DNA of 64,000 nt from Mobula hypostoma. Taxonomy: Eukaryota. Positions within the stretch are counted from its first letter, which is position 1, and every line of letters begins with the position of its first letter. The notes under the pieces were generated by a model, which saw only the letters and a program-made list of their open reading frames with translations, was not told the origin of the DNA and did no database searches. Shown here in pieces: positions 4,913 through 64,000 of this stretch. The translations under genes and the position numbers were made by a program. The stretch covers positions 76,510,001 through 76,574,000 of the forward strand of contig NC_086108.1 of assembly GCF_963921235.1 (NCBI RefSeq). Direction: 5' to 3'.

Positions 4913-5510
4913 CTGTTAAATACACAAAAAAAAACAATTAATAAAGAAGACAGAAACAAGTTCCAGGACACAAAAAAAATTAAATTATAAACACTACTTT
5001 TTTCTAACCGTTTATCTATAATTCTATCAAAGACTCATTTTTATCATAAATTGTCTGAAGAATAAAATTAGGCTATTAAGCCTGACAGGTCTATGTCAGT
5101 ATTACATTCTACAACTACTTCTTACTCTGCACTCATTTCTTCTTAAGTGTGTCAATCATATCGTCTTCATACACTCCATGCCCTTTCCATATAAAGAAAT
5201 TTATCCTAAGTATTTTCCATTTTTTATATTTATATATATATTTGGCATTTTAAACATTTCTGTTCTTACAAAAGCACAAGGACAAAGAAGAGGTAAATAG
5301 ATTATTATATCATGAGTAACATCTTCAAGAAAAGAGCGGAAAACAAAGATGAGAAGCAGAAATATTGAAACTGAGAACACCAACATATGATGTTTGTGTG
5401 GCTGAAGGCAAAAGTGAGACAGCAAGGGATCAACACATGGAGAAAGACAGAATTTTGAATTTTAGTCTGCAAAGAAAATCCGTAGAACTTCGACAAATAT
5501 ACAAAATGTT

Positions 5511-5689
5511 ACACTCACAACATGCTGGAGGAACTCAGCAGGTTGGGCAGCATCCGTGGAAAAGATCGGTCAACGTTTCGGGCCGGAACCCTTCGTCAGG
5601 ACGCTGCCACGGATTCTGCCCGACCTGTTGAGTTCCTCCAGCGTGTTGTGAGTGTTGCTTTGACCCCAGCATCCGCAGATTATTTTGTG
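5511..5689. mobile_element. Mini Penelope-like fold-back insertion (inverted pLTR fragments) with hammerhead
   Basis: Inverted arms 5511-5559 and 5607-5655; 13-bp TSD TATACAAAATGTT at 5498-5510 and 5690-5702; related to the Penelope-like 3' end at 42967-43110. Confidence 0.85.
5569..5602 (-). ncRNA. Minimal type I hammerhead ribozyme motif
   Basis: GTC-CTGACGA-AGGGTTCCGGCCC-GAAAC-GTT-GAC. Confidence 0.7.
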
Positions 5690-6599: not shown

Positions 6600-6878
6600 T
6601 AGTGACAATAAAGTTCATGAATTCTTTACTACTATTAAAGGGAAAGAGTACAATGGAGAAAAGATTAAGGAAAAGAAGTACAAATTTTATTTCATTCACA
6701 TCAGAGCTAAAACAATAGAAAAGTCATGGGAAAATCCCAATTCAGGACAAGGTGGTTGCTGGGCAATAAGGAGAAAGTGGCAGCTGAACAGATGGTGTCA
6801 AAATTAGTGACAATAAAGTCCATGAATTCTTTATTATTATTAAAGGGAAATAATACAATGGAGAAAAGATTAAGGAAA
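6600..6878. repeat. Local direct duplication, ~73-bp core at ~205-bp spacing
   Basis: TAGTGACAATAAAGT...AAGATTAAGGAAA at 6600-6673 and 6805-6878. Confidence 0.85.
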
Positions 6879-8781: not shown

Positions 8782-8841
8782 CTGAAGGACCTCTGGCAAT
8801 GTTGGTTTCCCATCTACCATGGACTGCTCAATGCCTGTGAG
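8782..8841 (-). CDS. ERI3: ERI3 internal exon, 60 bp (not in ORF track)
   Basis: LTGIEQSMVDGKPTLPEVLQ; acceptor TTTTTCATCAACAG, donor GTGAAT; continues FCTK-LTGI of ERI-1 family nucleases. Confidence 0.96.
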
Positions 8842-10389
8842 CTGTTGATGAAAAATAAGGAAGCCAGTTACAAACAGGTAAGCTTTCAATTGTATAGCAT
8901 TATATAATCATGACTATTATTATTACAGAAGAAATCTGAAATAACAAAAGGATTTATTAATCAAAACTTCTGTTCTTTGTAGGAAGCCCTTCATAACCCA
9001 AGATCACTTGTTTCAACTTGGTTCTTTAAGTTCAGAGGTGTCAGATTATAGCAATGTGTAACCCACAGACTTTTCCAGACACAACACAGGAAAAACTTGG
9101 CCAGACACACAATTAGGGAGATGTTCTTTCAACCATGTACATTTAGTTTCTATGTGCACCCGACACAGAATGGATAGTGACAGTGTCAATCCAAATGCTA
9201 CTTCCAGAGCCATGAATTCCCAGGAGTCAATGGGAATATTGCTTACTTTCAAGGATGATTTGAATCCAGGGCTTACTTCCAGTTTTTCCAAGTTCCTCTT
9301 GATCTACAGTGAGATATTCTTTATCTTAGTACTAGATGAGTAATAAACTTTACAAGATTCTCATTCTTGACAACAGAGGATGTTATTTATCCTCCAATGA
9401 TAACATCCTCAATTACCACCAAATTTCCATTCTGCTCTATACTTCTCACATAACCCACAATGCTTTGTTCTGGATTGCAGGTGTCCACTTATAGCTTTTT
9501 CTTGCCAACAAAGGTAGTTCTGTGGAACCACCTTCTCAGCTTCCAAAAAACCTGCACAACCTGCCTAGCAGTTACACTCTCTCATTCCGGACCCTGGGAT
9601 TTCCTACTTTTGAGGTAAAACTGCCTCCCACCTTCAGTGTTGAAGCTCCAACTCATTCTGCCTCTCAGCTATTCTGAAACAGAAGCATTCAATTTCAAGT
9701 TTAATTATCATTCAACCAAACACAAATAGCGCCAAATGAAACAGCATTCCCCTGGGGCCAAGTTGCAAAACACTTTACCAACAGCACATAGCACAAATAG
9801 CACATGGTTACAATTTCAGAACAACATAGAGCCATAAAGAAAAACATTAGCTCAAGTCCCTGAGTGCCAAGACAGTAGAATCGATGACAAGTTGACCTGG
9901 TCCAATGTGGTCATTATCACACTTGCAAATGCATAGCACTAAACTAAACAGAGCTATGAGGTTGAATTTCCAGGCAATTAGAAATAATGTTAACTGAAAC
10001 CCATTTACTGGAATATAGACATATTCTATATATTTAATTCGTATTAGTACTTCTGAATTATCTTGCGAAATCCATGAGTGACTCAGCCAAATGCTAGAGT
10101 GACTCCAGGCAAAGTATATAGGATCCCAATTTCCTTTCTCTAATATTTCACAAAATTAATCTAACACTTAGTGTCTGTGAGTCAAATCTTTGTATTTGAA
10201 ATTGTAATTGGTAAAATCACCTAACCACTCACAATTATAGATCTCCATTCAAATGGAAGTTTGCTGTAAAAAGAATGCTTTTGATTTTAAGATAAGAATT
10301 CCTTTCTCAAAGGTGAACAGTTTAGTTACCATGCTGCATGTAATTAGTTGCCACATTGCCAAAGTCTTCAAAATTAATCGTTTGTCTAG

Positions 10390-12013
10390 ACGTGGTTTAC
10401 CTACTTTAAAAACCTGCTGGGAAGCCCTCCAACGATCACCGAAGAAGAAAAGGACATACCCACGATACTAACGCAAGTCAACATCGATGGCAGCCCATTC
10501 ACCATTGAGGAACTGGAGAAGGCCAAATATGCACTCAAACAGAGCAGGAAAACTGAACCAGATGGGATACCACCAGATGTCCTGAAGAACTGCGACCTGT
10601 CGACATCTTGCTGGACATACGTAATGTGGCACTGATGAAAAGCGACAAACCAGAACAGTGGTCACTCTCAAACATTATCCCAGTCCCCAAGTCTGGATCC
10701 CTCATGAAGACAGATAACTACCGCGGTGTCAGCTTGACCTGCATCTTAGCAAAGCTAATCAATCGGGTGATCTTGAACAGGATTCGCACCGCCATTGACC
10801 CGAAACTAAAATTCAGTCAGAATGGTTTTCAGCAGAAGCACACAACAGTAATGCAAATACTTGCTCTCCGTAGAATCATCGAGGAAATCAGGAAGAACAA
10901 CCCACCAGCCGTGCTTACTTTCATCAATTTTCGCAAAGCTTTTGACTCCATTCACCGAGGTAAAATGCTGAAGATCCTGAAAGTTTACGGGGTGCCAGAC
11001 CGTCTACTGAGAACAATAGAGTCCAGCTATACCAAAACCATGGCGAAAGTTGTATCGCCGGACGGAGAAACAGCAGTGTTCGAGCTCCTAGCTGGTGTGC
11101 TGCAAGGAGACACTCTGGCACCCTACATCTTTATAATCGTCCTTGATTACGCTCTGCGTCAAGCTACCAAAGATCATGACAAGCTTGGTTTTACCATAAA
11201 ACCAGGACGAACCAAAAGGGTCAGACCAGTTACACTCACAGATCTTGATTTTGCAGATGACATAGTCCTGCTCTCTGACCAGATGGAGGAAGGACAGCAG
11301 CTACCGACAAAAGTGGAAATTGAGTGCAATGAAGTTGGACTTCACCTAAATGCTAAAAAGACAGAGTACATGGTGCTTAACTGCGACAAAGGTACTCTCA
11401 AAACCATAAAGAATGATACCATTAAGAAAGTCTTTGACTTCAAGTACCTCGGGTCAAGAATGATGAGTTCGGAGAAGGACATAAAGATAGGAAGGCGCTG
11501 GCGTGGAAGGCTATGAACGACATGAAGGAACTCTGGAAGTCGAACCTGACCAGAGGGCTTAGAAAGAGGATCTTCATAGCAGTTATAGAGTCCATTCTCA
11601 CATACGGATGCGAGACGTGGACACTCACCAAGACTATGCGAAAGTCTCTAGGTGGTTGCTATAGACGAATGCTCCGGATGGCTCTTGACGTGAGTTGGCA
11701 ACAGCACATGACAAACATCGAGCTCTATGACGACCTACCGATGCTCACCACTAAAATCGAGGTGAGGAGACTGCAACTAGCAGGGCACTGTCTACACCAC
11801 CCCGAGCTACCGGCCAGCCTAGTCATCGTATGGGAGCCCAAGCATGGGAGGATGAACCCTGAGCGCCCTCCCAAGACTATGATCAACACACTCCTAGGAG
11901 ACAGCGGCACGGCTAATGTAGATGAACTGAACACACTGATGAGGGAGAGGGAGAAGTGGAGAGTCTGTCATTGTGCCCGACGCCGGCCCCCGAGGCTTGA
12001 GTCGATGTCTTAA
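10390..12013 (+). mobile_element. RTE-group (RTEX-like) LINE, 5'-truncated, RT nearly intact
   Basis: ORFs 10608-11516 and 11513-12013: NYRGVSL, FRKAFDSIHR, GVLQGDTLAPYIF, LDFADD, FKYLGS, YGCETWTL; only a few frameshifts. Confidence 0.9.
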
Positions 12014-16261: not shown

Positions 16262-17595
16262 GTCCAGGGTTGCTCAAATAGACAGGGGCTTATTAGGGAG
16301 AGTCAACATGGCTCTGTGCGTGGTAGGTCATGTTTGACCAATCTGTTGGGAGTTTTTCGAGGAGGTTACCAGGAAAGTGGATGAAGGGAAGGCAGTGGAT
16401 ATTGTCTACATGGACTTCAGTAAGGCCTTTGACAAGGTCCTGCATGGGAGGTTAGTTAGGAAAATTCAGTCGCTAGGTATACATGGAGAGGTGGTAAATT
16501 GGATTAGACATTGGCTCGATGGAAGAAGCCAGAGAGTGGTGGTAGAGAATTGCTTCTCTGAGTGGAGGCCTGTGACTAGTGGTGTGCCACAGGGATCTGT
16601 GCTGGGTCCATTGTTATTTGTCATCTATATCAATGATCTGGATGATAATATGGTAAATTGGATCAGCAAGTTTGCTGATGATACAAAGATTGGAGGTGTA
16701 GTAGACAGTGAGGAAGGTTTTCAGAGCCTGCAGAGGGACTTGGACCAGCTGGAAAAATGGGCTGAAAAATGGCAGATGGAGTTTAATACTGACAAGTGTG
16801 AGGTATTGCACGTTAGAAGGACAAACCAACGTAGAACATACAGGGTTAATTGTAAGGCACTGAGGAGTGCAGTGGAACAGAGGGATCTGGGAATACAGAT
16901 ACAAAATTCCCTAAAAGTGTCGTCACAGGTAGATAGGGTCGTAAAGAGAGCTTTTGGTACATTGGCCTTTATTAATCGAAGTATTGAGTATGAGAGCTGG
17001 AATGTTATGATGAGGTTGTATAAGGCATTGGTGAGGCCGAATCTGGAGTATTGTGTTCAGTTTTCGTCACCAAATTACAGAAAGGATATAAATAAGGTTG
17101 AAAGAGTGCAGAGAAGGTTTACAAGGATGTTGCCAGGACTTGAGAAACTCAGTTACAGAGAAAGGTTGAATAGGTTAGGACTTTATTGCCTGGAGCATAG
17201 AAGTATGAGGGGAGATTTGATAGAGGTATATAAAATTATGATGGGTATAGATAGAGTGAATGCAAGCAGGCTTTTTCCACTGAGGCAAGGGGAGAAAAAA
17301 ACCAGAGGACATGGGTTAAGGGTGAGGGGGGAAAAGTTTAAAGGGAACATTAAGGGGGGGGGCTTCTTCACACAGAGAGTGGTGGGAGTATGGAATGAGC
17401 TGCCAGACGAGGTGGTAAATGTGGGTTCTTTTTTAACATTTAAGAATAAATTGGACAGATACATGGATGGGAGGTGTATGGAGGGATATGGTCCGTGTGC
17501 AGGTCAGTGGGACTAGGCAGAAAATGGTTCGGCATAGCCAAGAAGGGCCAAAGGGCCTGTTTCTGTGCTGTAGTTTCTATGGTTCTATGGTTCTA
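16262..17595 (+). mobile_element. Young 5'-truncated CR1 (HER1-like) LINE
   Basis: Uninterrupted 379-aa ORF 16377-17516 with YMDFSKAFDKV, GVPQGSVLGP, KFADDTK, RDLG; (TTCTATGG)n tail. Confidence 0.95.
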
Positions 17596-31349: not shown

Positions 31350-32365
31350 CAATAGACAATAGATGCAGGAGTAGGTCGTTCGGCCCTTCGAGCCAGCACC
31401 GCCATTCACTGTGATCATGGCTGATCATCCACAATCAGTAGCCCATTCCTGCCTTCTCCCCCATCCCTTGACTCCGCTATCATGAAGAGCTCTATCTAAC
31501 TCTTTCTTGAAAGCATCCAGAGAATTGGCCTCCACTGTCTTCTGAGGCAGAGCATTCCACAGATCCACAACTCTCTGGGTGAAAAGGTTTTTCCTCAACT
31601 CCATTCTAAATGGCCTACCCCTTACTCTCAAATTGTGGCCTCTGGTTCTGCACTCCCCCAACATAGGAAACATGTTTCCTGCCTCTAGCGTGTCCAATCC
31701 CTTAATAATCTTATATGTTTCAATCAGATCCCCTCTCATCCTTCTAAATTCCAGTGTTTACAAGCCCAGTCGCTCCAATCTTTCAACATATGACAGTCCC
31801 ACCATCCTGGGAATTAACCTTGTGAACCTACACTGCACTCCCTCAATAGCAAGAATGTCCTTCCTCAAATTTGGAGACCAAAACTGTACACAATACTCCA
31901 GGTGTGGTCTCACTAGGGCACTGTACAACTGCAGAAGGACCTCTTTGCTCCTATACTCAACTCCCTTTGTTATGAAGGCCAACATGCCACTAGCTTTCTT
32001 CACTGCCTGCTGTACCTGCATGCTTACTGTCAGTGACTGATGAACAAGGACATCTAAAACTTGTTGTACTTCCCCTTTTCCTAACTTGACACCATTCAAA
32101 TAGTAATCTGCCTTCCTGTTCTTGCTACCAAAGTGGATAACCTCACATTTATCCACATTAAACTGCATCTGCCATGTATCTGCCAACTCACCCAACCTGT
32201 CCAAGTCATCCTGCATTATCACAACATCCTCCGCACATTTCACACTGCCACCCAGCTTTGTGTCATCTGCAAATTTGCTGATGTTACTTTTAATCCCTTC
32301 ATCTAAATTATTAATGTATATTGTAAATAGCTGCGGCCCCAGCATCGAGCCCTGCGGTACCCCAC
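31350..32365 (-). mobile_element. CR1 LINE, 5'-truncated, RT C-terminus
   Basis: ORFs 31758-32345 and 31425-31739: LGPQLFTIYIN, KFADDTKLGG, RPHLEYCVQFWSP, RGDLIETYKI. Confidence 0.93.
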
Positions 32366-32790
32366 CAAGACCTTTCCAAGAACTTCGAAATTATTCATGC
32401 AGATAATGTTAAATTTAAATAAATAAAACAAATTATGATAAATTGTTGACAGTTTGCATTTTAGTAATCTCTTTATGACCATTAGAAACAAGTTAAAGTT
32501 TTGATTTTGAATGACACATTATATCTAATTCTGATCAGAATGTGCTTTACCAACAATGAGATGGGCAACAGCTGTACTAAAGTGATTACAACATCTCAAA
32601 AAGTAAATAAATTTTAAAAATCGTAAACCATATATACAAAACACATATTAGTTGATTAATATGTTTCAATGAGAAATGTTATCTCCATGAAACTCACATT
32701 AATTACTTGGTGTAACATGCAGAAATGTCCGATGAAGTTTCTAATTTTTGTGAACATGTTGTATACATTTTTGTCTTCCATTTACAATAC

Positions 32791-41700: not shown

Positions 41701-43068
41701 TAGGGTATAGGGTTTATGGGGGAGGGGGTCATTGGTGAGGTGTAAATACCAGGTTAACAATTCTATAATAAATACTGGAAGAAAAGGGAAATATACTGGG
41801 AGACATAAACAATTTTAGATTAGATACAAGATAGAAAAATGAATCCAGAGTGAAACCACAATCCACCTCCAGGCTTAATATGAGGTTGTTGTTAAGTTTA
41901 CTGGAACTACATCAAAGCATTTAGGTTCTTACAACTTTACCTGCATTTAACCTGGAGAAAGCAACTGGTTTGTTCTAGTCTTAATATCAATTAGGCAGCT
42001 GGGCAGAAAAGAATATTAATAGTTCTGGTATTGCTGAAGTGGTAGAGAAATTGAGCTATCTATTGTCACTGTTTAGGTGAAAATTGATCCTTCTTTCACA
42101 TTTTGCTAATATCTAAAAGTGAATGAAACAGGCTCTCTTCCAGAAAAATTGTGAAGTGATTAGGTAGACACAAGGGGGAAAGAACATTGCTATCTAATTC
42201 TGAACAATGTAGCAAGAAGGCAGGATACTGTGAGAAACAAGAGTTTGGTCTGATAATGCAACAAAATGAAAATTAGAACAAGTAAGCATCTAAGCTATAT
42301 AAAAAAACATTGCTAAATAGCCAGTCTATCTGCAAAAAGTCAGTGCTATATAATGATTTTGTAAGCAGTAAATATGGAGCAAATTATATTTTGAATTTTA
42401 TGTAATATAAGCACGAGTGACAAAAATGAAAGTTACTTATTTTCTTTTTTGATAACCTGTGCACTGTAGATTTAAATCTACCAAAATTTAAATGCATACA
42501 GAATCTCTCACAAAGCTTAGTAAATTCATTAAGTGGTACGTACATTAGCACTTGCATTTGTTAATCTTTTATTTCACTCCAAAAAATATACTGTTTCATT
42601 CAGCATCTGAATGGCAAAAGAAAATCTAGGATTTGAAAAATTGACGCTGAAAACTATTCACAGTTGATTACAAAGCTATCTACATTCGAGTGCTGATAGT
42701 GGAATCACTAAAAGAAATGGATAGACTGTGTGACACATTAGTTTTAATATTTATTTAATGCAAAAGGCAAAAATTGATAAATTTTGGAAATTATTTATTG
42801 ATTTCTAAGCACAAAATGTCACATAAATGTGAATGTGCTACAATAAACTATTTATTATGCTTCGCTGACAAAATTCAAATTAGTAGAAAAAATCATTATT
42901 GACAGAAAATAATAGGACTAATACGCTCTTGTGCCAAATGCTTTCTCTCTCAAGCAGAGATTTGAAAGGAAAACAACAGGAATTCTGCAGATGCTGGAAA
43001 TTCAAGCAACACACATCAAAGTTGCTGGTGAACGCAGCAGGCCAGGCAGCATCTGCAGGAAGAGGTGC

Positions 43069-43104
43069 AGTCGACGTTTCAGGCCGAGACCCTTCGTCAG
43101 GACT
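43069..43104 (-). ncRNA. Minimal hammerhead ribozyme in the left pLTR
   Basis: AGTC-CTGACGA-AGGGTCTCGGCCT-GAAAC-GTC-GACT. Confidence 0.8.
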
Positions 43105-45325
43105 AACTGAAGGAAGAGTGAGTAAGGGATTTGAAAGTTGGAGGGGGAGGGGGAGATCCAAAATGATGGGAGAAGACAGGAGGGGGAGGGATAGAGCCAA
43201 GAGCTGGACAGGTGATAGGCAAAAGGGGATACGAGAGGATCATGGGACAGGAGGTCCGGGAAGAAAGACAAGGGGGGTGGACCCAGAGGATGGGCAAGAG
43301 GTATATTCAGAGGGACAGAGGGAGAAAAAGGAGAGTGAGAGAAAGAATGTGTGCATAAAAATAAGTAACAGATGGGGTACGAGGGGGAGGTGGGGCCTGA
43401 GCGGAAGTTAGAGAAGTCGATATTCATGCCATCAGGTTGGAGGCTACCCAGACGGAATATAAGGTGTTGTTCCTCCAACCTGAGTGTGGCTTCATCTTTA
43501 CAGTAGAGGAGGCCGTGGATAGACATGTCAGAATGGGAATGGGATGTGGAATTAAAATGTGTGGCCACTGGGAGATCCTGCTTTCTCTGGCGGACAGAGC
43601 GTAGATGTTCAGCAAAGCGGTCTCCCAGTCTGCGTCGGGTCTCGCCAATATATAAAAGGCCACATCGGGAGCACCAGACGCAGTATATCACCCCAGTCGA
43701 CTCACAGGTGAAGTGTTGCCTCAGCTGGAAGAACTGTTTGGGGCCCTGAATGGTGGTAAGGGAGGAAGTGTAAGGGCATGTGTAGCACTTGTTCCGCTTA
43801 CACGGATAAGTGCCAGGAGGGAGATCAGTGGGGAGGGATGAGGGGGACGAATGGACAAGGGAGTTGCGTAGGGAGCGATCCCTGCGGAATGCAGAGAGGA
43901 GGGGGAGGGAAAGATGTGCTTAGTGGTGGGATCCCGTTGGAGGTGGCGGAAGTTATGGAGAATAATACGTTGGACCCGGAGGCTGGTGGGGTGGTAGGTG
44001 AGGACTAGGGGAACCCTATTCCTAGTGGGGTGGCGAGAGGATGGAGTGAGAGCAGATGGGCGGGAGGATGGAGTGAGAGCAGATGGCGGGAGGATGGAGG
44101 ATGGAGGATGTCTCTGTCTCTGGAGACAGCTTATCCACTGATGTCTACTATAAGCCTACTGACTCTCACAGCTATCTGGACTATTCCTCTTTTCACCCTG
44201 TCTCTTGCAAAAACGCCATACCCTTCTCGCAATTCCTCCGTCTCCACTGCATCTGCTCTCAGGATGAGGCTTTTCATTCTAGGACGAGGGAGATGTCTTC
44301 CTTTTTTAAAGAAAGGGGCTTCCCTTCCTCCACTATCAACTCTGCTCTTAAACGCATCTCCCCCATTTCACGTACATCTGCTCTCACTCCATCCTCCCAC
44401 CACCCCACTAGGAATAGGGTTCCCCTGGTCCTCCCCTACCACCCCACCAGCCTCCGGGTCCAACATATTATTCTCTGTAACTTCCGCCACCTCCAACGGG
44501 ATCCCACCACTAAGCACATCTTTCACTCCCCCCCCCTGCATTCCGCAGAGATCGCTCCCTACGCAACTCCCTTGTCCATTCGTCCCCCCCATCCCTCTCC
44601 ACTGATCTCCCTCCTGGCACTTATCCGTGTAAGCGGAACAAGTGCTACACATGCCCTTACACTTCCTCCCTTACCACCATTCAGGGCCCCAAACAGTCCT
44701 TCCAGCTGAGGCAACACTTCACCTGTGAGTCGACTGGGGTGATATACTGCGTCCGGTGCTCCCGATGTGGCCTTTTATATATTGGCGAGACCCGACGCAG
44801 ACTGGGAGACCGCTTTGCTGAACATCTACGCTCTGTCCGCCAGAGAAAGCAGGATCTCCCAGTGGCCACACATTTTAATTCCACATCCCATTCCCATTCT
44901 GACATGTCTATCCACGGCCTCCTCTACTGTAAAGATGAAGCCACACTCAGGTTGGAGGAACAACACCTTATATTCCGTCTGGGTAGCCTCCAACCTGATG
45001 GCATGAACATCGACTTCTCTAACTTCCGCTAGGCCCCACCTCCCCCTCGTACCCCATCTGTTACTTATTTTTATGCACACATTCTTTCTCTCACTCTCCT
45101 TTTTCTCCCTCTGTCCCTCTGAATATACCTCTTGCCCATCCTCTGGGTCCCCCCCTCCTTGTCTTTCTTCCCGGACCTCCTGTCCCATGATCCTCTCGTA
45201 TCCCCTTTTGCCTATCACCTGTCCAGCTCTCGGCTCTATCCCTCCCCCTCCTGTCTTCTCCTATCATTTTGGATCTCCCCCTCCCCCTCCAACTTTCAAA
45301 TCCCTTACTCACTCTTCCTTCAGTT

Positions 45326-56299: not shown

Positions 56300-59200
56300 T
56301 TGGGGAGCGGGTGAGGTCTGGGCCTGACATCCCGCTCACCCAGGGAAAGTGTACGCGCAATACATCGCCTCTCCTTTCCCGGTGTAGTGATCGCCACGTG
56401 GTCACCGACTGGCCTGCTAGGCAGGAGGCCACTGCAAATGGCCTCTCCTACATTACTGCATCCATAGCAACACCTTCTCGTCGGTGCCCCTGTTTCCACT
56501 GAGCTTGCTACATCATGGCACGATCGAGTGTCCGGTGGTATAACTGGATGGGTAGGCTGGGCTCGTTAGCCTTGGTTGGCAGCCAGCCTAAGAGAAGGAC
56601 AACCCTGAATCCAAACCCGGGCAGGTGGGGCTCGTTAGCCTTCTCAGGCCATCCACCTAGGAGTAGGACACTCCGACCTAACTCCTACGATCCAAGGACC
56701 TCGCTGTCACTGTCCCAGCTTGCCAGGCTATGGCAGATAAACCCCGGGTGTAAAGGGTGGGGCCAGTACCACGCACACTGCACTCCACCTAAAAGACCAT
56801 TGCGCAGGCCGAAGGACACGCCCACGTCTATGACCATCCTCCTCGACCATTCATCAAGCCCTGCAGCGATGGGAAAGGGGCGAAAACGGCAGGAGGAAGA
56901 TGACACTGGAAGCCGCAGTTCCGATCCTGCACGCAAGCAGTTCAGGTGTATGAGTCGTCTGATGTTGACCCCGGAGACGATGATATCATTCAGCAGCACC
57001 CTGAACAACCAAGCAGCCTTCTCTAGAGACAGTACTGCTTGTTCCACACGGAGAGGGGCCTAGAAAAGGTGGCCTATCCAAAGCTCGTTTCCATTCCCCC
57101 TCCCCGTTGGTTAGCTGCGGTCAACGGCCATCCTCAAATGTGGTCGAACAACAACAAAAAAAAGGTGCACACCTGCCACACAAGGAGTGCAAGGACTAAA
57201 GCTCGCATGCTGGAACATCAGAACCATGCTCGATACAGCAGACAGTGGTCGCCCAGAATGACGATCCACTCTAGTTACACATGAACTTTCAAGACTGAAT
57301 GTCGACACCACTGCTCTCAGTGAAGTCCACTTCCCAGAGGAAGGCAACCTTCAAGAGCATGGCGCCGGCTACACCCTCTACTGGTCAGGCAAGCCAGAGA
57401 CTGAGAGACACTTTTCTGGCTTTGGCTTTATGGTCAGCAATTCCATTGCCTCCAAACTTGAAAAATTGCCAACTGGTCACTCCGACCACATCATCTCCAT
57501 GCGCCTCCCACTTCGAACCAAGCAGCATGCCACACTCTTCAGCATGTACGCCCCCACTCTTCAAGGAGATCCTGCAGAAAAGGACAAGTTCTACACTGAT
57601 CTGCATAACCTCGTACAGAACGTCCCTGCAGACGACAAGGTCTTCATCCTTGGTGACTTCAATGCCAGAGTAGGCCAAGATTCAGAAGCCTGGAAAGGAG
57701 TACTTGGCAAACATGGTGTTGGAAACTCCAACAACAATGGGCGCCTTCTGTTAGAGTTTTGTGTGGAGCAGCAACTCACCATCACTAACACCATTTTCCA
57801 GCAGAAAGACAGTCTGAAGACAACCTGGATGCATCCTCTGTGCAAGCATTGGCACCTCATAGACTACATCTTGGGGCGTCAAAGAGACATTTGGGACGTC
57901 TTACTCACCCAAGTGATGCCCAGCGCAGAGTGTCATATGGATCATCATCTTGTCCACTGCAAACTCAGTCTCCATTTCAAACCTAAGCCAAAGAAAGGAG
58001 GCGCTCCAAGGAAGAAGTTTCAGGTTGACAACCTCCAGTGAGCTGAAGTGAAAGCTGACTTTCAGACGAATCTTCAGTCAAGGCTTCAGGACCCCAGTTT
58101 CCCTACAGACTCCTCTCCAGAAGTGCTTTGGGAACACCTAAAAACCACCATCCTGCAAACCTCTGAAGAAGTCCTAGGGTTTTCCACAAAGAAGAACAAG
58201 GACTGGTTCAATGAAACCAACCAGGAGATCCAAGAATTGCTGGCGAAGAAGAGATCCGCCCACCAGGCACACCTTGCTCAGCCGACTTGTCCTGATAAGA
58301 AAGCAGCCTTCCGTCTTGAATGCAGCAACCTTCAGCGCAAGTTGAGAGAGATTCAGAATGTGTGGTGGACCAACCTTGCAAAGAGAACTCAGCACAGACA
58401 CCAGTGACTACAGAGGGTTTTATGAAGCCCTGAGAGCAGTGTACAGCCCTTCGCACCAGGTCCAGAGTCCCTTGCGCAGTGCAGATGGTCAGGCGTTCTT
58501 CACAGACAATGCGTCCACCTTGAACCGGTGGTCGGAACATTTCCAGACTCTCTTCAGCGCCAGCCGCATGGTCCAAGAATCAGCAATTCATCGCATCCCA
58601 CAACAGCCAGAGAAAACAGAACTGGACAAGATTCCAACCCTAGAAGAGACAGTCAAGGCCATAGAGCAGCTGAAAAGTGGCAAGGCAGTGGGAATTGATG
58701 GAATCCCACCTGAGATTTGGAAGCATGGGGGCCCAGCGTTGCACACCAAACTCCATGAGTTCTTTGTCTGCTGCTGGGAACAAAGTAAACTACCACAGGA
58801 CCTCCGTGATGCAGTCATCACCCTGTATAAGAACAAGAGGGAAAAGTCCGACTGCTCCAACTACCAGGGGATAACTCTTCTCTCTATTGCAGGAAAAATC
58901 CTCACAAGAGTACTCCTGAACAGATTGGTGCCCATCATTGCAAAACAACACCTCCCAGAGAGCCAGTGTGGCTTCAGAGCCAACAGGAGCACCACCGACA
59001 TGGTATTTGTTCTCAGGCAGCTCCAAGAGAAATGTAGGGAACAGTACAAGGGATTGTACGTGACATTTGTCGACCTTACTAAAGCGTTCGACACCGTGAG
59101 CAAGGAAGATCTGTGGCAAATCATGGAATGACTGGGATGCCCCCTGAAGTTCCTTAGCATGGTCATCCAGCTACATGAAGATCAGAGTGGCCAAGTCAGA

Positions 59201-60415
59201 CACAACGACGACCTCTCAGAACCCTTCCCAATAGGCAACGGAGTAAAGCAAGGCTCTGTCCTCATGCCGACTCTCTTCACCATCTTCTTCAGCATGATGC
59301 TCGAAAGGGCCACAGAAGACCTTGATGATCAGGACGGTATCTACATCCGATACCGCACTGATGGCAGCCTTTTCAACCTGAGGCGACTACAGTCCCACAT
59401 CAAGACACTGGAGCAACTCATCCAAGAGCTACTCTTCGCTGACGATGCTGCCCTTGTTGCCCACACAGAGACAGCCCTGCAGCATATAACATCCTGCTTC
59501 GCAGAGGCTGCTGAGCTCTTCGGACTGGAAGTCAGCTTGAAGAAGACAGAAGTTCTCCACCAGCCCGCACCTCAGGAAGATTACCACCCTCCTCGCATCA
59601 CCATCGGTGAGGTAGAGCTGAAGACAGCCTACCAGTTCAGCTGCCTGGGATGCACCATTTTGTCAGATGCCAAGATCAACAAAGAGATTGCTGGAAGAGG
59701 CAAACAGCGTATTCGGCAGGCTGTACAAGAGAGCCTGGAACAACAAGCATTTGAAGAAAGGCACAAAGATCAGCGTGTACAGAGCCGTTGTACTGACCAC
59801 CCTCCTGTACGGCTCCGAGTCGTGGGTCACCTACCGTCTCCAACTACAACTCGAGCATTTCCACCAGCGCTGCCTCCGCACCATCCTCAACATCCACTAG
59901 AGTGACTTCGTCACCAACATCGAAATCCTTGAACAGGCGGAGGTCACCAGCATCAAGGCCATGCTGTTGAAGACACAGCTGCTCTGGGCAGGGCACGTCT
60001 CCAGGATGGAGGATCATCGCCTGCCCAAGGTTGTGCTGTATGGCGAACTTCCCACTGGCCACCGTGACAGAGGGGCACCGAAGAAGAGGTGCAAGGATTC
60101 TCTGAAGAAACCCCTTGGTGCCTGTCACATTGACCATCGCCAGTGGTCTAATCTATCCTCTGATCACGAGGCCTGGCAACACACCATTCACCAATTTGTC
60201 GTCTCCTTCGAGAATACATGCAGGGCTGGCATTGAGGACAAAAGGTGAAGGAGGAAGAACCGTGACACAGCAGCACCAAACCCAGAACAGAATTTCCCTT
60301 GCAGCCGCTGTGGGCAGACCTGCCTGTCCTGTATTGGCCTCGTCAGCCACCAGCGAGCCTGCAGCAGACATGGGCAGTCCCCTTCCTAAATCTTCATTTG
60401 CGAAGCCAAGCCATG
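56300..60415 (+). mobile_element. Near full-length RTE (BovB-like) LINE, ~4.1 kb
   Basis: APE (ACWNIRTM, YAPTL, LGDFNARVG, HWHLIDY), RT (ESQCGFR, FVDLTKAFDTV, GVKQG, LLFADD), C-terminal CSRCGQTC...HQRAC; a few stops and frameshifts; possible TSD ATACAC at 56294-56299 and 60416-60421. Confidence 0.95.
56302..56510 (+). ncRNA. Candidate HDV/CPEB3-like ribozyme at the RTE 5' end
   Basis: P1 GGGGAGC/GCCCCT, P2 TAGCAAC/G(C)TTGCTA, P3 ACC/GGT, L3 TTCTCGTC, J4/2 CTGA, in the correct nested order. Confidence 0.55.
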
Positions 60416-62249: not shown

Positions 62250-62421
62250 TCGAATAAACTCTTATTGGGCTTCAGCTGGGTACAGGTATCAATTATAACC
62301 AATGTTTCCATGACAAACTCTGCCATCTTCATCAGGGATGATGCCTGGGCATGTCTAGTCTGGTGGTATTTATACCCCCATAGTCCATCCCTCCTGATTG
62401 GTTAGTCTTCGTCCAATCAGG
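62250..62421 (-). mobile_element. Poseidon-type pLTR with decayed hammerhead, cut by the LTR element
   Basis: Aligns with 35283-35449; minus strand CC-CTGATGA-AGATGGCAGAGTTTGTCATG-GAAAC. Confidence 0.75.
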
Positions 62422-64000
62422 TGTGGTGATATCACGTGTAATGACGTGTCAGAACGTGATTAGAAAGAGTTCTAAGCATGCACAGAAATGTTAGAATGAT
62501 CTGGAACATGGCTTGGTAAAAACGTTGTTTGGTTTTGTTGCTGTAAATAAAAGTTCTAATTCTTCCAGAATATGATTCTTTATTGTTAACCCACGGTTCG
62601 TATAAATAAGAACACAACAATGGTGTAAGAAGTCGGTCTGGAAGAATAATACTTTCGCTAATACGGAAGAAGCGAAGATAATCGAAGACAAAAAGAGTTC
62701 GAACTGTTTTGGTGTTTGCTAACAGTTTTAAAAATGAAAGGTCTGCATCCTCCGCTGACACTTCAGCTGACTGGGAACATAGCTGAGAACTGGAGAAAAT
62801 TTAAGCAACGTTTTGAAATGTATTTATCAGCGATCGAAGCTGATGATAAACTGGGAAAAAAACAAAAGCTGTGCTTCTACTTCACATAATAGGTGACGAC
62901 GCAATAGAGGTATATAATCAGTTTATTTTTGAAGATGGAAATCATTTAAAATTAGAATCGACAATGGACAAATTTGAAGCATTTTGTATATCGAAGCGTA
63001 ATGTGACGTATGAAAGGCACAAATTTTTTACACGTGCACAGACAGCTGATGAAACAATTGATCAATATGTTACTGAATTGAGACATCGGAGCAAAACATG
63101 CGAGTTTGCAGAATTGACAGACTCTCTCATTAAAGACAGAGAGAGCAAGAGAACAGAATTTGACTCCCAATGCGGCAAAAGTAAAAGTCATAAAGAAAGC
63201 TCCCAGACCCATCCCTTTGTTACCAGCATCTGACAAAGCAATGCCACCAAAACCAGGAGTTGCAATTCTGCCCTCTGGGAGTAACGCACATGCATCAATG
63301 GGCCATGCATTCCATCACAATCTCACCTCTGCAGGAGGACAGAGGCCAAACTTGCCGGTACAGTACAGTACTGATCTGAAGCCAAAAAGTGACAAGATTC
63401 TGGATCCAAATGAAGAAGTGAAAGCACAAGTGAAGGAATTGAGAAGTTTTATTGAAATGATGAAGTCTCAGCATAAAAAAAGAGATTACACAGTTAATGA
63501 ATGAATTAGATGAAGAAGATTCGTATTCATTACAAATGGAAGTGGAAGGAATTAAGAAAGCTACAGTACTTGAAGTACAACCCAGATCATACATGGTCCA
63601 AACAGAAGAAGGAGCAGTGTTAAGAAGAAATCGCGAAGACCTTAAGAAAGAGCCAACTTCAGAGTTTCAGTTAACTGATGCAGACCAGACAAGACATGGA
63701 AATAACAATGAAACACAAGAACTGTGTGAACCACTTGGAAGGTCTACTTGTGTTCGTAAACCCCCAGAGAGACTGACAGAAACATATTAAATCATGAATT
63801 TGTTCTGAATGTTGCTAATTGTTTTTCTTTTTAAGGAAAGGAAGGTGTGGTGATATCACATGTAATGATATGTCAGAATGTGATTGGAAAGAGCTCTGAG
63901 CAAGCGCAGAAATGTTAGAATGATCTGGAACATGGCTTGGTAAAAACGTGGTTTGGTTTTGTTGCTGTAAATAAAAGTTCCAGTTCTTCCAGAATATGAT
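62422..64000 (+). mobile_element. Internally deleted Ty3/gypsy (Mag-like) LTR retrotransposon
   Basis: 5' LTR 62422-62619 (TG...CA); PBS TGGTGTAAGAAGT 62621-62633; gag from ATG 62734 (GNIAENWRKFKQRF...KRNVTYERHKFF...LIKDR); integrase tail ATVLEVQPRSY...RRNR...RKPPERL; PPT 63833-63845; 3' LTR from 63846. Confidence 0.93.
63141..63562 (+). pseudogene. SH3KBP1: Captured intronless fragment of an SH3KBP1/CIN85-family gene (Pro-rich linker and C-terminal coiled coil)
   Basis: SDKAMPPKPG...GQRPNLPVQYSTDLKPK...EEVKAQVKELRSFIEMMKSQHKK/EITQLMNELDEE..LQMEVEGIKKA parallels the CIN85 C-terminus as I recall it ([52 protein letters not shown]). Confidence 0.82.

What the first reader, a model, noticed from the sequence alone, without database searches (positions are those of the whole stretch)
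62422..64000. Gypsy LTR element whose pol is replaced by a captured SH3KBP1/CIN85-like mRNA fragment
Seen: a ~1.6 kb element with LTR, PBS, gag, then ~420 bp of non-retroelement coding sequence (63141-63562), then the last ~75 codons of integrase, PPT and a second LTR. Protease, RT, RNase H and the integrase core are absent. With a +1 slip in the A7 run at 63475-63481, the insert reads ...SDKAMPPKPG...EEVKAQVKELRSFIEMMKSQHKK EITQLMNELDEE (KIRI in the shifted frame) LQMEVEGIKKA. Knowledge (from memory): this matches the SH3KBP1/CIN85 C-terminal coiled coil better than CD2AP, and in mammals that region spans the last several exons. Inference: a spliced host mRNA was captured by reverse-transcriptase template switching, as in retroviral oncogene transduction. 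All cis signals for trans-mobilisation remain, so this may be an amplified non-autonomous family carrying a host oligomerisation domain.
Basis: partly seen in the sequence, partly recalled or inferred. Interest (0 to 1): 0.92.

Follow-up and report, generated by a model that had tools for sequence, protein, structure and literature searches.

The report
Ray retrotransposon carrying spliced SH3KBP1 fragment
This is a decayed copy of a jumping-gene family in a ray genome that swapped its copying enzymes for a spliced piece of the host's SH3KBP1 messenger RNA, then multiplied and recombined with a sister family carrying a piece of a second host gene, RABEP1.

Summary
Confirmed. The insert (63141-63561) matches ray SH3KBP1 (a sister copy 96% identical, E 8e-71). 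It joins the last four exons of the parental gene with all three introns gone, in 43 of 43 copies examined, with a 7-nt microhomology at the 3' switch. The family amplified: 149 matches to that junction, control 0. One correction: the family keeps Gag and protease; only this copy lost them in a later deletion. New here: the same Gypsy also captured a RABEP1 coiled-coil segment, and the two cargo families recombined into RABEP1-SH3KBP1 mosaics (140 junction matches); at least 285 places carry the SH3KBP1 coiled coil. Capture predates the Mobula-Hemitrygon split. The insert decays neutrally; expression is not shown. Ten multi-copy junctions are all in frame (null 41-51% each), a hint of selection on the reading frame. 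The mechanism is known (LTR-mediated retroposition, Tan 2016). The scan noted like cases with other cargo (SUDS3, USP35, RBM25, MYH16) elsewhere in this genome, none with SH3KBP1 or RABEP1.

The parts
62417..62421 (+). Left target-site duplication TCAGG (right copy at L001:2396-2400, just beyond the window)
62422..62619 (+). 5' LTR (TG...CA, 198 bp)
   Evidence: K2P 0.066 to the 3' LTR
62621..62638 (+). Primer-binding site; sister copies read TGGTGTCAGAAGT (tRNA-Leu type, assignment recalled)
62734..63140 (+). 5' part of gag, frameshifted; residues 1-132 of the single-ORF Gypsy polyprotein P0034, 68-75% identical
63140..63141 (+). Breakpoint of a secondary deletion of about 770 bp (rest of gag, zinc knuckle, protease) seen only in this copy
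63141..63225 (+). 3' part of the fourth-last SH3KBP1 coding exon (host L056:1064-1210)
63226..63476 (+). Whole third-last SH3KBP1 exon (host L056:5391-5641; 96% over 251 nt): proline-rich linker and start of the coiled coil
63477..63535 (+). Second-last SH3KBP1 exon (host L056:6729-6792), with small indels
63536..63561 (+). Start of the last SH3KBP1 exon (host from L056:8830), ending in the AGAAAGC microhomology shared with the Gypsy integrase tail
63562..63790 (+). C-terminal tail of Gypsy integrase (about residues 1209-1285 of P0034) with its stop
63833..63845 (+). Polypurine tract
63846..64000 (+). 3' LTR (runs 35 nt beyond the window)

Best explanation
A single-ORF Gypsy retrotransposon of the stingray/manta ancestor co-packaged spliced SH3KBP1 mRNA. 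Its reverse transcriptase switched onto the mRNA and back at short shared words, so RT, RNase H and the integrase core were replaced by the last ~130-145 codons of SH3KBP1 (shown: intron loss, microhomologies, replaced interval). The ~2.35-kb product kept LTRs, PBS, PPT, Gag and protease and was copied in trans by the RT-bearing parent family (shown: separate insertions with their own TSDs, parent family in the same genome; the trans step is inferred). It kept recombining in shared particles, picking up different gag haplotypes and new 5' junctions and crossing over with an independent RABEP1-carrying chimera (mosaics shown; order of events inferred). The cargo is a passenger. Every copy examined has since decayed; the window copy also lost half of gag and the protease.
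For: Parental exons and 4180, 1087 and 2037-bp GT-AG introns. 43 of 43 distinct places cross all three junctions within 1 nt. All 43 end at or within 7 nt of one 3' junction with the 7-nt AGAAAGC word; 5' words GTCAT(AAA), AAGAG, AG.AGAGCA. 19 of 20 RT-start hits continue into RT, 1 into SH3KBP1; integrase tails of chimeras and RT-bearing copies differ no more (0.085) than the latter among themselves (0.087). Junction counts 149, 140, 82 and 54, controls 0. Exact 5-bp TSDs in L001, L026, L036, L039, L042. Singleton changes in the insert: transitions N 65/233 vs S 33/125, transversions N 91/583 vs S 11/95. gag 5' half differs 15% between copies against 5% for the insert, 7% for protease and 8% for the tail, and both 5'-junction types occur in two gag clusters.
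Against: All 10 multi-copy junctions read in frame, where a microhomology null gives 41-51% each: more order than a pure passenger predicts. Lineage-level gag variants are third-position biased (58 of 119 vs 119 of 371, p 0.0014), although that may be inherited from the autonomous donors. The copies were chosen as best matches, so divergence figures are biased low and out-of-frame subfamilies could be missed.
Confidence: 0.85

Rival explanations
1. Same origin, but the in-frame Gag-protease-coiled-coil fusion was favoured while the family replicated: either an uninterrupted frame stabilised the RNA or aided cis-packaging, or the host coiled coil helped the defective Gag co-assemble with helper particles.
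For: 10 of 10 multi-copy junctions in frame; 0.45^10 is about 3e-4, and 0.45^4 about 0.04 for the four found by DNA search alone. As they stand, 34 of 41 copies are in frame at the 5' junction and 39 of 41 at the 3' junction. Both cargos are coiled coils, and the SH3KBP1 coiled coil is the part kept in the three mosaic forms.
Against: No constraint on the insert's amino acids: shared variants N 42/233 vs S 20/125 transitions; third-position share 5 of 27 among variants in 3 or more copies. RABEP1-only copies lack the SH3KBP1 coil. Six junctions were reached through an annotated protein, which favours in-frame forms. Purine-rich coiled-coil codons raise both sense-strand and in-frame microhomology. 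The coil inserted in RABEP1 adds 43 residues, not a whole number of heptads.
Confidence: 0.12
2. A LINE-made SH3KBP1 processed pseudogene inserted into, or was gene-converted into, a resident Gypsy copy at the DNA level, and the composite then spread.
For: The window is rich in LINE remnants, and this route also removes introns.
Against: No poly(A), no 3' UTR and no internal TSD. The insert stops 5 codons before the host stop at a word shared with integrase, and it replaces about 2.3 kb of pol instead of interrupting it.
Confidence: 0.02
3. Copies are kept by the host as a source of antisense or small RNA regulating SH3KBP1 or RABEP1, or one copy is a domesticated gene.
For: NCBI gene models P0009 and P0033 in Hemitrygon are such chimeras; low-depth contigs in three possible RNA runs.
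Against: Neutral decay. The deep contigs over the insert continue into host mRNA; chimeric pieces are shallow and those runs are only guessed to be RNA.
Confidence: 0.05

Closest known systems
LTR-mediated retrocopies of animals (Tan et al. 2016, PMC5131818; abstract, passages and section 5 read)
   Same: Partial mRNA replaces internal ORFs between two LTRs; microsimilarity of about 6 bp at the switch points; two genes can be combined; products can re-transpose as non-autonomous elements.
   Different: In the passages read, re-amplification meant a few sites (18 sites for nine retrocopies) and multi-gene chimeras were ascribed to several switches. Here at least 285 places carry the cargo, it is shared by two ray lineages, and both single-cargo parents exist beside their recombinants.
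Maize Bs1 (passages in review PMC13317346, and in PMC5131818)
   Same: LTR element carrying segments of several host genes.
   Different: Plant element whose chimeric ORF is reported as a new gene, with one segment out of frame. Here all multi-copy junctions are in frame and no function is shown.
Acutely transforming retroviruses such as MC29 gag-myc (recalled, no call)
   Same: Replication-defective, helper-dependent, host cDNA fused in frame to gag in place of pol.
   Different: No env, intracellular Gypsy, germline-fixed, and no sign that the cargo was selected for activity.
Single-ORF Gypsy elements of fishes and amphibians (P0034-P0041, 'K02A2.6-like'; Mag-type label recalled)
   Same: Gag, protease, RT start and integrase tail align with P0034; domain order PR-RT-RH-IN in P0034.
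   Different: About 750-800 residues of pol replaced by host sequence.

Membership tests
LTR-mediated retrocopy (Tan 2016) | Host segment lacks introns | tested here: met
   three introns absent in 43 of 43 places
LTR-mediated retrocopy (Tan 2016) | Host segment replaces part of the element's ORF | tested here: met
   P0034 residues from about 395-455 to 1208 absent
LTR-mediated retrocopy (Tan 2016) | Microsimilarity at switch points | tested here: met
   7 nt at the 3' junction, 5-9 nt at 5' junctions; no simulation of significance was run
LTR-mediated retrocopy (Tan 2016) | No poly(A) or internal TSD; both LTRs present | tested here: met
   an LTR pair found in 22 of 43 fetched stretches, at least one of them spurious
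Non-autonomous Gypsy family | Many dispersed insertions with own TSDs and an autonomous partner | tested here: met
Non-autonomous Gypsy family | Present-day mobility or transcription | tested here: inconclusive
   LTR pairs differ by median K2P 0.088; only weak contigs in guessed-RNA runs
Transducing (oncogene-type) retrovirus | Cargo under selection for protein activity | tested here: not met
   neutral pattern in the insert, with low power for internal branches
Transducing (oncogene-type) retrovirus | Infectious helper with env | tested here: not met
   RT-bearing relatives run from the integrase tail straight to the 3' LTR in the stretches read

The most novel reading that the evidence does not exclude
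Ray Gypsy elements behaved as a population of helper-dependent 'transducing' elements in which in-frame Gag(-protease) fusions to host coiled coils from endocytic adaptors (CIN85, Rabaptin-5) out-replicated other defectives, because the coil aided co-assembly or packaging. Cargo modules were then shuffled between families: the retrotransposon counterpart of oncogene transduction, driven by selection on the element.
Probability: 0.12. Interest if true: 0.8.

Novelty: new variant of a known kind. Interest (0 to 1): 0.52.

Why it matters
It shows LTR-mediated gene capture going far past the one-off retrocopy: hundreds of copies, both single-cargo parents and their recombinants preserved in a slowly evolving genome, so the rules of capture (microhomology, frame, cargo type) can be tested statistically in a vertebrate. 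In practice these copies mislead annotation: P0009 and P0033 are gene models made from them, one named as a RABEP1-like gene. They would inflate SH3KBP1 or RABEP1 copy counts in rays.

Tried and rejected
Pfam on the window's own frames found nothing useful. The 7423 first-look candidates and 446 are not copy numbers; junction patterns were used instead. 'Pol including protease replaced' was rejected for the family. Purifying selection on the insert was not found. Heptad-preserving insertion of the SH3KBP1 coil into RABEP1 was rejected by counting (net 43 residues). Expression: no contig bridges a Gypsy-host junction by 31 aligned letters on both sides in the pieces listed; X19 record 20 has 19. 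Dating in years from the epaulette-shark rate (7e-10 per generation, PMC10587355 passages) was dropped, because it gives implausibly old ages; a phylogenetic bracket was used. Segmental duplicates L027 and L007 were dropped from counts (flanks over 99% identical to L026 and L003); L046 was also dropped only. No tRNA gene in the window. No structure or complex prediction was run. Paper searches for this case (listings and abstract starts only) showed no report of it. The manta genome preprint 10.64898/2026.10.27.761883 (passages) has no mention of SH3KBP1 or retrocopies in its main text; its supplements could not be seen and might list repeat families.

Full report
Observation. The window holds a 5' LTR at 62422-62619 and a second LTR from 63846, 92% identical over 158 nt. 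The second ends 35 nt past the window, and TCAGG is duplicated on both sides. Between them lie a PBS, gag codons 1-132 (68-75% identical to the single-ORF Gypsy polyprotein P0034), about 420 bp of foreign sequence, the integrase tail and a purine tract. The element sits inside a decayed Penelope-like element on the other strand (family label recalled).

Cargo. The insert of sister copy L008 hits the CIN85 coiled-coil structures 2n64 and 5abs at E 2e-15 and is 96% identical over 128 aa to Mobula hypostoma SH3KBP1, 95% to Pristis, 92% to Hemitrygon. The parental gene is at G000:C18, 80.84-80.91 Mb. Its last four exons (L056:1064-1210, 5391-5641, 6729-6792, 8830-8871) are separated by GT-AG introns of 4180, 1087 and 2037 bp. 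I fetched 50 loci (20 of 40 scored DNA matches; 30 of 67 protein matches), which are 43 distinct places. All 43 cross all three junctions with an offset of at most 1 nt. The window insert is 96.9% identical to the spliced exons. The mRNA route is therefore shown.

Family form. Sister copies have about 770 bp more at window position 63140/63141: the rest of gag with a zinc knuckle, and a protease with the DTG motif. LTR-to-LTR spans are mostly 2.33-2.42 kb. What the family lost is RT, RNase H and the integrase core.

Junctions and helper. Of the 20 best hits to the RT-start peptide, 19 continue into RT and 1 into SH3KBP1. Nine of 10 downstream stretches fetched held integrase sequence, so the parent family is in the same genome; its integrase-tail motif has 278 matches (some belong to RABEP1 chimeras). 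The 3' switch is at AGAAAGC, shared by the host's last exon and the integrase tail, and all 43 alignments end within 7 nt of it. The 5' switch varies: most copies join at GTCAT(AAA) in the RT-start region, and a minority keep about 15 more host codons and join at AAGAG or nearby. The 3' junction motif has 149 matches at up to 3 mismatches, reversed control 0. Exact 5-bp TSDs are visible in L001, L026, L036, L039 and L042, and one-mismatch TSDs in L005, L015 and L041. The 5' half of gag differs by 15% between copies, against 7% for protease, 5% for the insert and 8% for the tail, and both 5'-junction types fall in two gag clusters. I infer repeated recombination with several helper sublineages.

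A second cargo. Hemitrygon gene model P0033 is Gypsy protease + RABEP1 coiled coil + SH3KBP1 coiled coil + RABEP1 + integrase tail. The RABEP1 segment has 150 scored matches here. Seven loci were read: four have protease, RABEP1 residues about 61-153, the SH3KBP1 coil, then RABEP1 again to about residue 170 (three read on into the integrase tail); three have gag zinc knuckle, a shorter RABEP1 piece, the SH3KBP1 coil and a different tail. Motif counts: RABEP1-to-SH3KBP1 140, SH3KBP1-back-to-RABEP1 54, alternative tail 82, controls 0. The three mutually exclusive 3' ends sum to 285 places, a lower bound. One search lists 24 non-host places with RABEP1 uninterrupted across that point (E under 1e-8); 10 coincide with parent-type tail motifs among the 100 listed. 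These were not fetched, so the RABEP1-only family is inferred from coordinates. The host RABEP1 matches lie about 9 kb apart on C71 while the copies are contiguous, which points to intron loss but was not checked base by base. Simplest history (inferred): two independent captures, then single and double crossovers between the two chimeric RNAs.

Age. LTR pairs differ by median K2P 0.088 (20 pairs, range 0.048-0.294, the top value a spurious flank match); inserts differ from the host by median 0.034 (41 copies). Copies carry the states shared by Mobula and Hemitrygon against Pristis, Narcine, Rhinoraja and sharks (G in 40 of 40, M in 31 of 40, A in 36 of 41). The Hemitrygon chimera P0009 lacks its own host's derived changes, and 6 of 10 copies checked show GAA where this host now has GAT, the others being altered or deleted there. 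Capture thus falls after the split from Pristis and before the Mobula-Hemitrygon split, unless horizontal spread is invoked. Five coded organisms hold the stretch, and RABEP1-mosaic loose ends appear in runs of organisms D and E.

Function. Against the host, the insert shows only two fixed differences over the region scored, both silent CpG changes, and neutral scatter: singleton transitions N 65/233 vs S 33/125; shared transitions N 42/233 vs S 20/125 (40 copies). Lineage-level gag variants are third-position biased (p 0.0014), which may come from autonomous donors. Against a pure passenger reading, all 10 junctions seen in more than one copy keep the frame, and 34 of 41 and 39 of 41 copies still read in frame at the 5' and 3' junctions. 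A null from exact shared words gives 41-51% in frame for SH3KBP1, so ten in a row is about 3e-4; but six were reached through an annotated protein, and the four found by DNA search give about 0.04. Expression is not shown: deep contigs in three guessed-RNA runs are host mRNA, and element pieces are shallow.

What is known. Tan et al. 2016 (PMC5131818; abstract, passages, section 5) describe this architecture, the microsimilarity, two-gene chimeras and limited re-amplification. Bs1 of maize carries three host segments (PMC13317346, passages). My searches found no report of SH3KBP1 or RABEP1 capture in rays. Earlier notes of this scan describe like families in this genome with SUDS3, RNF213, USP35, RBM25 and MYH16 cargo, none with SH3KBP1 or RABEP1; I did not test them.

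Verdict. Real, and the mechanism is well supported but known. What stands out is the scale, the age, and a preserved network of two cargo families with their recombinants. Interest 0.52; a working role for the captured coil has about a 12% chance.

Noticed in passing
L094-L100; G000 genome-wide: Sister chimeras carrying a RABEP1 (Rabaptin-5) coiled-coil segment, alone or fused to the SH3KBP1 coil, in at least three mosaic forms.
   Followed up: partly
L097-L099, after the SH3KBP1 coil: 82 places share a different downstream tail of unidentified origin (perhaps another Gypsy sublineage or a third cargo) and, in the three read, lack protease.
   Followed up: partly
P0009, P0033: NCBI gene models in Hemitrygon akajei that are chimeric retrotransposon copies; one is named rab GTPase-binding effector protein 1-like.
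   Followed up: yes
window about 62300-62421 and L001:2396-3422: The element interrupts a decayed Penelope-like RT/GIY-YIG element on the minus strand (label recalled).
   Followed up: partly
L055 (G000:C2:30664721-30664834): 58% match to SH3KBP1 residues upstream of the cargo, perhaps the CD2AP paralogue.
   Followed up: no
G000:C66:33008901-33009296 and C18:42450011-42450800: The RABEP1-SH3KBP1 junction motif occurs twice within one locus, suggesting internal duplication or a further template switch.
   Followed up: no
window 57262-60389, 10557-12013, 16338-17516, 31546-32390, 43002-45032: Decayed RTE-like, CR1-like and Penelope-like retroelement frames (labels from recalled motifs); no host gene was looked for.
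   Followed up: no
L042, L044: Further short (1.1-1.2 kb) internally deleted copies with two LTR matches, so secondary shrinkage recurs.
   Followed up: no
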